Below, in pieces: positions 20,658 to 23,600 of a stretch of DNA of 64,000 bases. The translations under genes and the position numbers were made by a program. The notes beneath the pieces are model-generated. The model did not search any database. It was not told the DNA's origin and saw only the letters and a list, made by a program, of their open reading frames with translations. The first letter of the stretch is position 1, and each line of letters starts with the position of its first letter. Source of the stretch: Candidatus Omnitrophota bacterium (lineage in GTDB: Bacteria > Omnitrophota > Gorgyraeia > Zapsychrales > Fredricksoniimonadaceae); NCBI GenBank assembly GCA_030650275.1, contig JAUSEK010000023.1, forward strand, positions 199,729 through 263,728, in the 5' to 3' direction.

Positions 20658-23600
20658 ATGTTTAAAAAATTCCTAAACCTTGTCCTGATTCTTACCTTTG
20701 TGGCCTCTTCGTTGGCGCCTGCCCGTTCTTATGCCGCACCCCTATCTTTACCTGAGCCGGGAACAATGGTCAATCTAAGCCCTGCCTTTGAGTCGGTCTT
20801 GATCAAAGGCCTTAAAGTCCATCCCGAGAATCCTTTTGCCTTTGATTTCATTGTAGATACCGGCCACACGGGATTGTCCGTAGAGACGAGGCATGCCTCG
20901 TCTCTACACAACGAATCCATGAAATTGATCAAATATTTCCTTACTGCCTTAACCATCCCCGAAAAAGACCTCTGGGTCAACCTGTCTCCCTATGAGAAGG
21001 ACAGGATGATCGCAGAGAACTTAGGCAAAACCCAAATGGGCCAGGACATGCTGGCCCAGGACTATATCCTCAAACAACTGACCGCATCTCTGATCTATCC
21101 TGAACGTGACTTAGGCAAGGCCTTCTGGGACAAGGTCTACCAAAAAGCCCAACAACTCTACGGCACTACTGAAATACCCGTCAACACCTTTAACAAGGTC
21201 TGGATCGTTGCAGACAAGGCCGATATCTTTGAACGCGGCAATGTGGCCTACATTGTAGGAGCACATCTTAAGGTGATGCTGGAGGAGGACTACACGGCTT
21301 TAAACAAGAACCAACAGGGATTGTCACCCCCGAAATCTTCTATCGGGGGTCCAGAGCATGGGACATCTTCTGGATTCCCGACAAAAACATTCGGGAATGA
21401 CAGCCATGCGATGGCCTCCCAGATCGTCCGTGAGGTCATCCTTCCCTCCATCGAACAAGAAGTCAACCAGGGCAAGAACTTTGCCCCTCTTCGCCAGATG
21501 TTCTACTCCATGATCCTGGCTTCCTGGTACAAGATGGCCCTTAAAGACACCATCCTAACCCAACTCTACGGTAACCAATCAAAGACCAAGGTCGGCATCA
21601 ACGCCAACAACCCCAATGACAAGGACAAGATTTTCGAACAATACCTGAAGGCCTACAAGAAGGGTGTGTTCAACTATATTAAGGAAGATGCTTCGGCTGC
21701 GCTCAGCACAGGTGCTTCGACTCCATCGTCCCGACAATCGTCGGGACTCGGTCGCTCAGCACAGGTGCCCAGGAAGTATTTTTCGGGGGGGCTGCAGATG
21801 GGCGTTGACCAAGCCATGCGGGTCGTGCACGACCTGCCTTTGGGGACATCATTACGTACAGGAAACACCTTTGATGTCGCGATCTTGGCCAATACTAAAT
21901 TGGCTGGTTCCGACGGGGCGATGGTGGCCAGGATACCAGTTAATTATACTAATACAAGAACACGTCAAGCAGTAGCTGGTTTGAAACTAACAGAGCTGGG
22001 CGTTGGCTATACACGTTTATCCAACGGAAATCCGACACCAGAGATGATTTTTACCGTGACCACTCCAAGCGGTCGAACAATTGAATTAACCGGAGCATCA
22101 CCGGCAGGAGAGTCTGAAGGAGTAAGAGCAGCCCTCTTTATGCTAGATGGGTCAGCAGCTGAAGACCTTACACTTATCAGAGATGGAGTTCTCAAAGCCG
22201 TTTACGGGGATATCTCTAGAGAAGATGCGGAAAATAGGATGCTAAAAGACATTTTTGGATTAGACAGGCAGCAAGCCCTTGTCCAGATGAAGGCTGACTT
22301 AAAAGGAAAAAATATTAAAGTCGCCCTTTGGATCGCTGAAAAAGTAATCCTTCCAAAGCTTAAAGACGCCATTGAATCAGGGAGGGTTGATCCAGCCATA
22401 AGATATCGCATGGATGACACTCAAAACAAAAGTATTGATGACTTTCTTATTAATCTCGACATTGAACTTTTTGGTCGTGAAGGATACAAGGGGGATCAAT
22501 TTTTAGCCCTTAGTGGAGGCAATGTAACTGCTTTGAGTAGGGTTGGGTACAGATTAGTAGCTACTTTAAACGGTGTTTCCAATGAAGAAGTTTTATCTCA
22601 TGGTTATAACCCAGATACAGGAGAAGTTGATCCTCATCAGGAGTTTGGCATCGTTCATCCCATGCCTGTTTTAATCGAAGGCGCCGCTCATGGAGGCTGG
22701 CTAACTGATTTTCAAGAGTTTATGTATTTAATGATGCTTAATGAACGAGAGAGAGCAATGAAAGGATTAGCTCCGAAGTTTGAAAGTCTTCTTAACAAAA
22801 TACAAGCAGTGACAGTGGCACTAACCGATATATTGAAGAAACAGGGAGAGTCCGTCGGTGTGGGTAGCGAAGCGGCCTTTATGTTAAGAAACGCAAATAG
22901 CAATTTAGATCCGATTCAATATCTTTTAGATGCGGCTCGAAAGAGTGGATTAGTAGTAGGAGAAGATTATGGTTTAAGCTTTGATTGGGCCACCAGTGAA
23001 ATTTATCACACCACTGCAGATGGATGGCCTGTGACCGGGTATTATCTATCACTTGAAGGCCGATTAGGAAAACTGCCTGAGATTATTATTCCTGGAGGAA
23101 CTGCGGAAGGTCAAGTGCGAACTCTGGGCCAATTGATAACAGTTCAGGGTAAAAAATATGCTGTATTATCGACGATAAATATGTTTGATTGGATTAAATA
23201 TTTAATTACAAGAACAAACAACCCTCTTCCCTTGGCTACACTGGAAGATATATTTGCTCAGTTTGATATCCAAGGAACCAGAATGTTGACAGGACTTTTA
23301 TATGAACTGAAAAGAACATCCGGATTTCCGTTTAGTTTTCAAAATAGTAATGGTGTAACGCAGGTCATGGATGACATGTGGACAACCCGTCGAGATATCA
23401 TGAGAGCTGCGATCAAGGGGACCCCTCTAGGAGAACCGTTAGTTATTGGAGAGGGGAGAGATCAAGAAGTATTAAATTTTCCTCAGGATACGTTCGACGG
23501 GGGGTTGGTAAAGCTCAATCAGGTTGGGCCGATAAAGTGGTTTATGCAAGCGGCCGCAGAGTTACGGGCACGAGGCCGTGATGTTGTTGATTCTCATAGG

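What the first reader, a model, noticed from the sequence alone, without database searches (positions are those of the whole stretch)
21701..21768. Hairpin insert flanked by 15-bp direct repeats (TSD-like) inside paralog 1
GCTCAGCACAGGTGC | TTCGACTCCATC GTCCCGAC AATC GTCGGGAC TCGGTC | GCTCAGCACAGGTGC adds 'STGASTPSSRQSSGLGRSAQ' between 'KGVFNYIKED' and 'VPRKYFSGG'. Paralog 2 has 'KGVYNYIKEEADPYTRQTVPRKYFSGG' with no insert. A perfect 15-bp duplication bracketing a stem-loop looks like a small insertion with target-site duplication, or a hairpin-mediated slipped duplication.
Basis: seen in the sequence. Interest (0 to 1): 0.5.

Follow-up and report, generated by a model that had tools for sequence, protein, structure and literature searches.

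The report
Tandem palindromic repeats inside a gene
The hairpin and its flanking repeat are real, but they are two neighbouring copies of a small palindromic DNA repeat sitting in frame in a flexible loop of an Omnitrophota protein (a known kind of event, best described in Rickettsia), not a transposon with a target-site duplication.

Summary
The exact direct repeat is 16 nt (21700-21715 and 21753-21768, 53 nt apart). The 8-bp hairpin (21728-21747) is the core of a larger palindrome.

The target-site-duplication reading fails. Removing 53, 55 or 37 nt breaks the reading frame, and the two repeat copies are read in different frames.

On the minus strand the locus has two head-to-tail units of one small palindromic repeat:
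- A 51-nt nested unit (21712-21762): GTGCT-GAGCGA-[29-nt inner hairpin]-AGTCGA-AGCAC. It is 17 codons, exactly the excess over the family's usual 9-residue loop.
- A 22-nt simple unit (21688-21709), 19/21 identical to the nested unit's joined arms.

The 16-mer is the shared 5' end of these two units.

Both units match a palindromic element found in the same loop of other Omnitrophota homologues. One metagenome contig has the identical GAGCGA|AGTCGA core, split at the same point by a hairpin with the same stem.

Every lineage-specific insertion in the N-terminal domains of both paralogues coincides with a palindromic repeat.

This is a new member of a known kind: REP/RPE-like protein-coding palindromes. 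No allele or ortholog could be found, so how the repeat spreads and in what order the two units arose remain inferred.

The parts
20658..25322 (+). Host gene (paralog 1), 1554 aa. It has a signal-peptide-like N-terminus, an Omnitrophota-specific N-terminal domain of about 375 aa, an enolase-like region, a His_Phos_1 domain and a C-terminal GGIDFN module.
   Evidence: ORF. Pfam hits. 1430 homologues, every source-named hit Candidatus Omnitrophota/Omnitrophica. 48% identity to paralog 2 over 402 aa.
21687..21764 (+). Variable loop of 26 codons (DASAALSTGASTPSSRQSSGLGRSAQ) between the conserved motifs KKGVFNYIKE and VPRKYFSGG. It consists entirely of the two repeat units and their AG spacers, apart from its first base (21687).
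   Evidence: GC is 0.63 against 0.44 and 0.53 in the flanks. Residues 337-346, 349-354 and 357-381 of the AlphaFold2 model have pLDDT < 50, covering almost all of the loop (347-372).
21700..21715 (+). Direct repeat copy 1 (CGCTCAGCACAGGTGC). It comprises the 5' 10 nt (minus-strand sense) of the simple unit, the AG spacer, and the last 4 nt of the nested unit's 3' arm. It is read as LSTGA.
21753..21768 (+). Direct repeat copy 2. It comprises the 5' 10 nt (minus-strand sense) of the nested unit, the AG spacer, and GTGC from the conserved Val-Pro codons. It is read as RSAQV, a different frame from copy 1.
21712..21762 (-). Nested palindromic unit, 51 nt (17 codons). Minus strand: GTGCT GAGCGA [CCGA GTCCCGAC GATT GTCGGGAC GATGG] AGTCGA AGCAC. 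It forms a three-tier hairpin: 5-bp outer, 3-4-bp middle and 8-bp inner stems.
   Evidence: Architecture scan. DNA fold -13.1 kcal/mol, z = -4.0, 0 of 200 shuffles as good. Excising it leaves an in-frame 9-aa loop, DASAALSTE. The alignment places a 17-aa insertion at 21702-21752.
21723..21751 (-). 29-nt inner segment that interrupts the GAGCGA|AGTCGA core of the nested unit.
   Evidence: The joined outer arms, GTGCTGAGCGAAGTCGAAGCAC, match the simple unit 19/21 without gaps. L014 has the identical 12-nt core interrupted at the same point.
21728..21747 (.).
   Evidence: The same 20-mer is nested inside palindromic elements in L014 and L017.
21688..21709 (-). Simple 22-nt unit. Minus strand: GTGCT GAGCGCAGCCGA AGCAT. 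It lies head-to-tail after the nested unit, separated by CT (plus-strand AG, 21710-21711).
   Evidence: 19/21 identity to the nested unit's joined arms, and 20 matches to the canonical element TGTCATTGCGAGCGAAGCGAAGCAATCTC of L010; 0 of 5000 shuffles reach either score. It does not fold significantly on its own (z = 0.13).

Best explanation
The 78-nt loop of this gene is occupied by two head-to-tail copies, on the minus strand, of a small REP-like palindromic repeat.

- The first is a 51-nt unit whose GAGCGA|AGTCGA core carries a nested 29-nt hairpin.
- The second is a 22-nt simple unit without the nested hairpin.
- Each unit is preceded by CT.

The 16-nt 'direct repeat' is the identical 5' end of the two units (minus strand: GCAC-CT-GTGCT-GAGCG). 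It is not duplicated target DNA.

The repeats sit in frame in a loop that tolerates length changes across the whole protein family. They add a Ser/Thr/Gly/Pro/Arg-rich, probably disordered peptide of 17 extra residues without disrupting the protein. This resembles the protein-coding palindromes of Rickettsia and the intragenic REPs of Opitutus terrae.

**Shown:** the anatomy, the frame arithmetic, the relatedness of the two units to each other and to elements in other Omnitrophota genes, and the coincidence of all N-domain insertions with palindromes.

**Inferred:**
- The units arrived or spread by a hairpin-dependent DNA process. This could be single-strand transposition of REPs, which leaves no target duplication, or copy-choice at hairpins.
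- The pair arose in one of two ways. Either a complete 51-nt nested unit inserted beside a resident simple unit, or there was an in-frame 24-nt duplication of a unit that skipped the hairpin.
- The nested hairpin itself is an insertion into the centre of a simple unit.
For: 1. **Frame arithmetic.** Only excision of 21712-21762 (51 nt) or of a 24-nt unit keeps the frame. The 51-nt excision gives a 9-aa loop, which is the modal length in homologues (46 of 72).
2. **A self-contained palindrome.** The 51-nt unit is closed by a 5-bp terminal inverted repeat (z = -4.0).
3. **The two units are related.** The simple unit matches the nested unit's joined arms at 19/21 positions without gaps. Both align to the element TGTC-ATTGC-GAGCGAAGCGAA-GCAAT-C with 18-20 matches. 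No shuffle out of 5000 reaches these scores, and the opposite-strand control scores at chance.
4. **The canonical element occupies the same loop elsewhere.** It is found, simple or with various nested hairpins, in homologues from four other Omnitrophota contigs. It occurs three times in the L010 gene.
5. **An independent contig has the same layout.** L014 has ATCCC-GAGCGA-[A GTCCCGAC AATC GTCGGGAC GA]-AGTCGA-GGGAT. The 12-nt core is identical, it is interrupted at the same point by a hairpin with the same stem, and the outer stem has co-varied.
6. **All insertions are palindromes.** All three lineage-specific insertions of 3 aa or more in the N-domain of paralog 1, and both of those in paralog 2's conserved N-domain, coincide with palindromic repeats (GTAG-type, CGTC-type and this one).
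7. **Hairpin enrichment.** 10 of the 29 perfect hairpins of 8 bp or more in the window lie in the 3.5% of it that encodes the two N-domains (p = 3e-8).
8. **Composition.** Both units are GC-rich (0.63) against flanks of 0.44 and 0.53.
9. **Precedent (PMC3733652).** REPs inside ORFs, REP dimers encoding 20-30 aa, and REPs nested in palindromic targets are all documented.
Against: - No second copy of a unit with the GTGCT/AGCAC outer stem was found in the 64-kb window or in any fetched locus, so multi-copy status in this genome is unproven.
- The units lack the TGTC/CGTC tag of the canonical elements. They have ACCT instead.
- The simple unit does not fold significantly on its own. It also occupies a loop of exactly modal length, so it could be native loop sequence partly converted by the neighbouring unit.
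- The loop of the inner hairpin is inverted relative to L014 (GATT versus AATC with respect to the arms).
- The last 4 nt of the 16-mer (GTGC) match the conserved Val-Pro codons. That has to be coincidence or microhomology.
- No RAYT/IS200-type gene was found among the 20 small ORFs tested.
- No allele or ortholog exists in the databases to show an empty site.
Confidence: 0.6

Rival explanations
1. Purely local origin. A low-complexity, unconstrained loop grew by slipped-strand or template-switch duplications around a quasi-palindrome. The resemblance to palindromic-repeat families is incidental.
For: - The repeats are contiguous and head-to-tail, with periods of 24 and 53 nt.
- The 16-nt identity is perfect, as expected for a recent duplication.
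- The hairpin arms and the 16-mer are each near-palindromes (GTC-NN-GAC and GCAC-AG-GTGC). A 12-nt tandem repeat, ATCGTCCCGAC/ATCGTCGGGAC, also underlies the hairpin.
- There are no other copies in the window.
- An in-frame 24-nt step is possible.
Against: - The joined arms and the simple unit match an element family found in other Omnitrophota genes and in L014, with 0 of 5000 shuffles as good. This includes an identical 12-nt core interrupted at the same position.
- The other insertions in the same domain are unmistakable multi-copy REP-type repeats.
- A full 53-nt slipped duplication would be out of frame and is not what is present.
Confidence: 0.2
2. A miniature transposable element (the 37 nt between the repeats) that inserted with a 15-16-bp target-site duplication.
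For: A perfect 16-nt direct repeat brackets a hairpin-containing segment that is absent from the paralog.
Against: - Excision of 53, 55 or 37 nt frameshifts the gene.
- The two copies are read in different frames.
- The 37-nt segment has no terminal inverted repeats.
- A 16-bp duplication is far above the usual 2-14 bp (general knowledge of IS and MITE elements).
- No other copy was found in the window, or with matching flanks in about 1 Tb of contigs.
- Elements in the same loop of homologues lack flanking repeats.
Confidence: 0.03
3. A selected mRNA or DNA structure, such as a translational pause site before the domain boundary or a protein-binding hairpin, rather than selfish or neutral repeat DNA.
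For: - The 95-nt stretch folds strongly as RNA (-42.2 kcal/mol, z = -3.8).
- Hairpins are concentrated in the N-domain coding regions.
- The GTAG palindromes in the two paralogs differ by fully compensatory changes.
Against: - No Rfam family matches.
- Most homologues lack any insert at this loop.
- The sequences occupying the loop differ between lineages.
- No covariation data are available for this particular unit.
Confidence: 0.07
4. An assembly or sequencing artefact, or a chance repeat.
For: - The family is multi-copy, and many public contigs break exactly at KKGVFNYIKE.
- The source genome is not in the databases, so the sequence cannot be cross-checked.
Against: - The ORF stays open through the insert for 1554 codons, ending in the family's C-terminal module.
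- The post-loop sequence GGLQMGVDQAMRVV resembles that of homologue P0007.
- A 16-nt repeat is too short to loop a de Bruijn graph at the usual k.
- A chance origin is unlikely.
Confidence: 0.05

Closest known systems
Rickettsia palindromic elements (RPE): 'protein-coding palindromes' (Ogata et al.; Claverie & Ogata; cited in PMC3733652 and PMC10969869)
   Same: - Palindromic repeat DNA is inserted in frame within ORFs that stay intact.
- It adds a short peptide at a position tolerant of insertions.
- Several elements can sit in one gene.
   Different: - Classic RPE-1 is about 100-150 bp, and RPE-4 and RPE-6 are CGTC-tagged. The units here are 22 and 51 nt and lack that tag.
- The host is a free-living or episymbiotic Omnitrophota lineage, not an obligate intracellular alphaproteobacterium.
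- Sequence homology to RPEs was not tested.
GTAG- and CGTC-tagged REPs, including intragenic REPs and REP dimers (Di Nocera et al. 2013, PMC3733652)
   Same: - They are small stem-loop repeats, often in dimers or clusters.
- Some lie entirely within ORFs and encode 20-30 aa, most abundantly in Opitutus terrae (my knowledge: a Verrucomicrobia species of the PVC group, as Omnitrophota are usually placed) and in R. conorii.
- Some REP families are regularly found nested inside other palindromes.
- No target-site duplication is part of their description.
   Different: - The focal units have neither a GTAG nor a CGTC/TGTC tag, only a 5-bp outer stem that does not start with AT, and no CCA tail.
- Other repeats in the same genes (31764-31793; 21322-21403) do fit the CGTC-1 description. 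Those at 20880-20907 and 31056-31083 carry the GTAG/CTAC ends of GTAG-type REPs.
Un-named Omnitrophota element TGTC-ATTGC-GAG(CGAAGC or a nested hairpin)CGAA-GCAAT-C, seen here in L008-L011 ('VIAS..EAIS' / 'VSLRG..' peptides)
   Same: - It occupies the same protein loop and has the same size class.
- It has the same plan: a 5-bp outer stem, a GAGCG...CGAAGCA core, and an optional nested hairpin at the centre.
- The sequence similarity is significant.
   Different: - The orientation relative to the gene is opposite.
- The outer stem is GTGCT/AGCAC instead of ATTGC/GCAAT.
- The TGTC tag is absent.
- The core has two 1-nt indels.
Bacterial MITEs with target-site duplications (e.g. Correia/NEMIS, RUP, ERIC; reviewed in PMC10969869)
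   Same: A short non-coding element with inverted-repeat structure that can insert into genes, sometimes in frame.
   Different: MITEs are 70-300 bp, with 15-30-bp terminal inverted repeats and short target duplications. Here the repeat is 16 nt, it overlaps the palindrome's own ends, and the excision test fails.

Membership tests
Transposon/MITE insertion with target-site duplication | Removing the element plus one repeat copy restores an intact target (here, an open reading frame). | tested here: not met
   Deleting 53, 55 or 37 nt frameshifts the gene and destroys PRKYFSGG.
Transposon/MITE insertion with target-site duplication | Terminal inverted repeats lie at the ends of the segment between the direct repeats. 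| tested here: not met
   Segment 21716-21752 begins TTCGAC and ends CTCGGT. The closing inverted repeat GTGCT/AGCAC overlaps both 16-mers.
Transposon/MITE insertion with target-site duplication | Other copies of the element exist, flanked by different duplications. | tested here: not met
   There is no other copy in the window. The 17 exact hairpin matches in public contigs have unrelated flanks without the 16-mer. The rest of the source genome was unavailable.
CGTC/GTAG-tagged REPs (Di Nocera 2013) | A GTAG or CGTC (TGTC/CCTC) tetranucleotide lies at one end of the stem-loop. | tested here: not met
   Both units are preceded by ACCT on the minus strand. In contrast, 31764-31793 reads TGTC-ATTCCCGC-GAAG-GCGGGAAT-CCA.
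CGTC/GTAG-tagged REPs (Di Nocera 2013) | A high-copy family exists within the genome. | not testable with these tools
   Only 64 kb of the genome is available. It holds two units in tandem at this locus and none elsewhere.
CGTC/GTAG-tagged REPs (Di Nocera 2013) | An associated RAYT (IS200/IS605-type Y1 transposase) is present, for GTAG REPs. | tested here: inconclusive
   No Y1_Tnp hit among 20 ORFs of 150-215 aa in the window. A single-copy gene could lie anywhere in the genome. According to PMC3733652, CGTC REPs lack a dedicated transposase.
Protein-coding palindromes (RPE-like) | A palindromic repeat lies wholly inside an ORF, in frame, and the ORF remains intact. | tested here: met
   The 1554-codon ORF is open through the units. 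The nested unit is 51 nt, or 17 codons.
Protein-coding palindromes (RPE-like) | The insert is absent from homologues and lies at a structurally permissive site. | tested here: met
   The modal loop is 9 aa, with a range of 3-21 aa among the regex-matched homologues. The alignment shows a 17-aa insertion. In the model, pLDDT < 50 segments (337-346, 349-354, 357-381) cover almost all of the loop. The flanking conserved motifs are also modelled poorly, so 'surface loop' rests mainly on length variability.
Omnitrophota ATTGC-GAGCGAAGCGAA-GCAAT element family (un-named) | A 5-bp outer stem encloses a GAGCG...CGAAGCA core, with an optional hairpin nested at the core centre. | tested here: met
   Alignment gives 18-20 matches, and 0 of 5000 shuffles score as well. 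The architecture scan finds only the focal unit and L014. Canonical copies are listed.
Omnitrophota ATTGC-GAGCGAAGCGAA-GCAAT element family (un-named) | A TGTC tag and the ATTGC/GCAAT outer stem. | tested here: not met
   The focal units have ACCT and GTGCT/AGCA(C/T). They are therefore a relative or variant, not a canonical member.
Slipped-strand tandem duplication | Contiguous head-to-tail copies of one unit with near-identity over the whole unit. | tested here: inconclusive
   The units are contiguous (24-nt and 53-nt periods). They differ by a 29-nt internal segment and by 2 of 21 arm positions. This is compatible with duplication plus hairpin gain or loss, or with two separate insertions.

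The most novel reading that the evidence does not exclude
In Omnitrophota, a large secreted multi-paralog protein family has two or three specific loops that are recurrently and preferentially colonised by several families of small palindromic repeats (GTAG-type, CGTC-type and GAGCG-core). These repeats can nest inside one another and stay perfect through compensatory changes. This would be an active, hairpin-targeted process that builds new peptide segments. It might also provide recombination points for shuffling the conserved N-domain onto different enzyme bodies. It would be an RPE-like phenomenon operating across a phylum outside obligate intracellular bacteria.
Probability: 0.15. Interest if true: 0.6.

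Novelty: new member of a known kind. Interest (0 to 1): 0.35.

Why it matters
The focal feature is, on its own, an ordinary example of a rare but documented event: small palindromic repeats that end up in frame inside genes.

It is useful for three reasons:
- It shows that a convincing-looking 'TSD + hairpin' signature can be produced by two adjacent copies of a palindromic repeat. A simple excision and reading-frame test exposes this.
- It adds Omnitrophota to the short list of lineages (Rickettsia, Opitutus and a few others) where repeats decorate proteins.
- The dense, site-specific accumulation of three different repeat types in one domain family, including nested units and compensated perfect palindromes, offers a tractable system. 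It could show how such repeats choose their targets and whether they contribute to protein-loop evolution.

Tried and rejected
**Searches that found nothing useful**
- Alleles or orthologs. The exact protein is not on record. A 26-mer just downstream of the insert gave no match in metagenome contigs. The best N-domain homologue is 72% identical and its contig ends at the loop. The post-loop 444 aa have only one weak enolase hit among 5.8 billion proteins. Presence/absence could therefore not be tested.
- Hairpin 20-mer in genome contigs: 8 matches in 7 loci. In metagenome contigs: 9 loci. Most are terminator-like hairpins in unrelated phyla with unrelated flanks. Only L014 and L017 were informative, as nested elements.
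- Flanking direct repeats around palindromic inserts in the same loop of four homologues: none of 7 nt or more.
- Rfam over 20600-22300: no match at E <= 1.
- A RAYT-type transposase among 20 small ORFs: none.
- Fold search of the N-domain model against the PDB: nothing significant.
- Literature searches for Omnitrophota combined with palindromic or hairpin repeats: nothing relevant.

**Interpretations considered and dropped**
- DGR target hairpin: there is no template repeat.
- Mini-CRISPR: there are only two 16-nt repeats, inside a gene.
- Intrinsic terminator: there is no T-run on either strand.
- Programmed frameshift: the frame is continuous.
- A chimeric assembly join at the loop: the post-loop residues match homologue P0007.

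**A flawed test.** My first masked-arm alignment of L014 against the focal unit (last test, p = 0.09) was badly constructed because it included the variable linker bases. The direct comparison of the joined cores (GAGCGAAGTCGA in both) is what I rely on.
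Full report
**What is at the coordinates**

The window reads ...GAA GAT GCT TCG GCT G[CG CTC AGC ACA GGT GC]T TCG ACT CCA TCG TCC CGA CAA TCG TCG GGA CTC GGT [CGC TCA GCA CAG GTG C]CC AGG AAG....
- The repeat finder gives an exact 16-nt direct repeat at 21700-21715 and 21753-21768, spaced 53 nt apart.
- It gives a perfect 8-bp/4-nt-loop hairpin at 21728-21747.
- It also gives a 13-nt imperfect repeat, AGATGCTTCGGCT/AGGTGCTTCGACT, spaced 24 nt apart.
- Neither the 16-mer nor the hairpin recurs in the window, even with 3 mismatches.
- A 16-nt local repeat is reached in only 1 of 30 codon shuffles.

Two corrections apply. The repeat is 16 nt rather than 15. The full loop peptide is DASAALSTGASTPSSRQSSGLGRSAQ (26 aa).

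**Context**

The stretch lies in a 1554-codon ORF (20658-25322, plus strand).
- Its first ~375 residues form a domain with no Pfam match. A database search for this domain returned 1430 hits. Every hit that a source names is Candidatus Omnitrophota/Omnitrophica, and the best is 72% identical.
- The rest of the protein has an enolase-like region, a His_Phos_1 domain and a C-terminal GGIDFN module.
- Paralog 2 (30840-33440) shares the N-domain at 48% identity, and also the C-terminal module.

The loop between the near-invariant motifs KKGVFNYIKE and PRKYFSGG is 9 aa in 46 of 72 regex-matched homologues, with a range of 3-21 aa. It is 9 aa in paralog 2 and 26 aa here. The alignment places a 17-residue insertion at 21702-21752.

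**Why it is not a target-site duplication**

The spacing of 53 nt is not a multiple of three, and the two 16-mers are read in different frames (LSTGA versus RSAQV).
- Deleting the insert plus one repeat (53 nt) frameshifts the gene and destroys PRKYFSGG. So does deleting the gapped extended version (55 nt) or the inter-repeat segment alone (37 nt).
- Only deletions of 51 nt (21712-21762) or 24 nt keep the frame.
- The 37-nt segment has no terminal inverted repeats.
- Palindromic inserts in the same loop of four homologues have no flanking repeats.

**What it is**

Read on the minus strand, the locus is:

GGGCAC CT [GTGCT GAGCGA (CCGA GTCCCGAC GATT GTCGGGAC GATGG) AGTCGA AGCAC] CT [GTGCT GAGCGCAGCCGA AGCAT] CTTCC

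The first bracket (21712-21762) is 51 nt, or 17 codons. That is exactly the excess over the modal loop. It is a self-contained three-tier palindrome closed by a 5-bp terminal inverted repeat. Its DNA fold is -13.1 kcal/mol (z = -4.0), and 0 of 200 shuffles fold as well.

If the central 29 nt are removed, its arms join to GTGCTGAGCGAAGTCGAAGCAC. This matches the second bracket (21688-21709) at 19 of 21 positions without gaps.

Its outermost 4 nt fall on the end of the neighbouring unit in one copy, and on the conserved Val-Pro codons in the other.

**Relatives elsewhere**

Homologous genes from other Omnitrophota contigs carry the element TGTC-ATTGC-GAG...CGAA-GCAAT-C in this same loop.
- The centre is either the simple form (GAGCGAAGCGAA) or one of various nested hairpins.
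- The L010 gene has three copies.
- Both focal units align to the simple form with 18-20 matches. No shuffle out of 5000 scores as well, and the opposite strand scores at chance.

The public-contig scans for the exact 20-nt hairpin mostly returned unrelated terminator-like hairpins. Two hits were informative.
- L014 reads TGTC-ATCCC-GAGCGA-[A GTCCCGAC AATC GTCGGGAC GA]-AGTCGA-GGGAT-C. It has the identical 12-nt core GAGCGA|AGTCGA, interrupted at the same point by a hairpin with the same stem, and a co-varied outer stem.
- L017 has the same hairpin nested in an ATTGC...GCAAT element.

The focal unit differs from these in three ways. It lacks the TGTC tag, it has a different outer stem, and its inner loop is in the opposite orientation.

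**The same thing happens at the other insertions in these genes**

All three insertions of 3 aa or more in the N-domain of paralog 1 coincide with palindromes. So do both of those in paralog 2's conserved N-domain (a third, 3-aa one lies downstream of PRKYFSGG and was not examined):
- perfect 28-nt GTAG...CTAC palindromes (20880-20907 and 31056-31083);
- a tail-to-tail dimer of CGTC-type REPs (21322-21403), also present at 33889-33973 and 5598-5662;
- a single CGTC-1-like REP (31764-31793: TGTC-ATTCCCGC-GAAG-GCGGGAAT-CCA);
- a long GTAGGGGCGA...TCGCCCCTAC palindrome (31492-31549).

Ten of the window's 29 perfect hairpins of 8 bp or more lie in the 3.5% of the window that encodes the two N-domains (p = 3e-8). 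The whole focal loop has a GC content of 0.63, against 0.44 and 0.53 in its flanks.

**Effect on the protein**

The AlphaFold2 model (mean pLDDT 75) has pLDDT < 50 in 337-346, 349-354 and 357-381. These segments cover almost all of the loop (347-372). The CGTC-dimer insert (233-246) is also below 50. Five of the six frames of the 51-nt unit are open. The insert most likely adds a disordered Ser/Thr/Gly/Pro/Arg-rich peptide and is tolerated.

As RNA, the 95-nt region folds strongly (z = -3.8). There is no Rfam match and no evidence that the structure has a function.

**Mechanism**

What is shown:
- the anatomy of the locus;
- the frame arithmetic;
- the relatedness of the units to each other and to elements elsewhere;
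- the association between insertions and palindromes.

What is inferred is how the units got there. There are two single-step, in-frame routes:
- insertion of a complete 51-nt nested unit beside a resident simple unit, leaving CT|CT, which is at most a 2-nt duplication;
- a 24-nt duplication of a unit made while the inner hairpin was extruded and skipped.

REP-type repeats are thought to move as single-stranded hairpins via IS200/IS605-like Y1 transposases, without target duplication. They are known to cluster, to nest inside other palindromes, and to occur inside ORFs (PMC3733652). No such transposase was found among 20 small ORFs of the window, which is uninformative for a whole genome.

No allele or ortholog is available. 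The order of events therefore cannot be resolved, and neither can the multi-copy status of this particular variant in its own genome.

**Comparison with known systems, and novelty**

The closest described phenomena are the Rickettsia palindromic elements and the intragenic GTAG/CGTC REPs of Opitutus terrae and other species (PMC3733652, PMC10969869).
- The focal units work like these but fail the tag and stem criteria of the CGTC and GTAG families.
- They are best filed as a variant of an un-named GAGCG-core palindromic repeat seen in Omnitrophota.
- I found no literature on such repeats in Omnitrophota.

**Verdict**
- The feature is real.
- The target-site-duplication interpretation is rejected.
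- It is a new member of a known kind.
- Interest in the focal feature is modest. Interest in the wider pattern of loop-specific colonisation of this protein family is somewhat higher.

Noticed in passing
window 20880-20907 and 31056-31083: Perfect 28-nt GTAG...CTAC palindromes sit at the same loop of the two paralogs. They read GTAGAGACGAGGCATGCCTCGTCTCTAC and GTAGAGACGCAGCATGCTGCGTCTCTAC and encode VETRHASSL and VETQHAASL. They differ by a double change on each arm that is fully compensatory, so both remain perfect palindromes. In homologues this loop is usually 12 aa, and it is occupied by other palindrome-like sequences in a minority.
   Followed up: partly
window 21322-21403 (coding, in frame), 33889-33973, 5598-5662; single unit 31764-31793: These are tail-to-tail dimers of CGTC-type REPs: TGTC-ACCCCCGA...TCGGGGGT-CCA facing TGG-ATTCCCGA...TCGGGAAT-GACA. 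One dimer encodes 27 aa (LSPPKSSIGGPEHGTSSGFPTKTFGNDS) inside paralog 1. A single CGTC-1-like unit encodes VIPAKAGIQ in paralog 2. They fit the CGTC-1 description in PMC3733652, which is the REP class that includes Rickettsia RPE-6 and Neisseria dRS3.
   Followed up: partly
window 31492-31549: A 58-nt palindrome, GTAGGGGCGA...TCGCCCCTAC, with two inner 8-bp hairpins lies in frame in paralog 2 and encodes CRGDACHRPQEGRIQDSPLQ. It is GTAG-tagged at both ends.
   Followed up: no
window 60490-60840: This is a third, truncated copy of the N-domain. About 115 codons match residues 25-99 of paralog 1 at 52% identity, and then the sequence diverges and stops. It carries its own hairpin (CCCTCCCC-CTTGT-GGGGAGGG, 60690-60710) in the first variable loop. 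It is probably a gene fragment or pseudogene.
   Followed up: partly
window 20658-21800 and 30840-31960; proteins P0001-P0120: The N-terminal domain family returned more than 1,400 database hits, all named ones Omnitrophota. It has no Pfam match and no significant PDB fold match. The domain is fused to unrelated bodies: enolase-like plus histidine phosphatase, response regulator, NUDIX, sigma-54 activator, and shikimate dehydrogenase. It is usually paired with a shared C-terminal module of about 60 aa (GGIDFN...). The function of this N-/C-terminal 'frame' is unknown.
   Followed up: partly
window 21672-23003 (residues ~340-780 of paralog 1): The region after the N-domain has essentially no homologue among 5.8 billion proteins. 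The only hit is a weak enolase match (E = 4.5e-8, 34% identity).
   Followed up: partly
proteins P0001, P0035, P0064, P0070, P0085, P0097: Many public contigs encoding this family end exactly at or just after the KKGVFNYIKE motif. Assemblies appear to break systematically at this conserved motif or variable loop.
   Followed up: no
window 56746-56890: A cluster of short direct repeats (GCGGCCAAGCC..., up to 18 nt exact, with spacings of 27-75 nt) lies just downstream of the SPOR-domain ORF (55947-56552), in the gap before the next ORF (56895).
   Followed up: no
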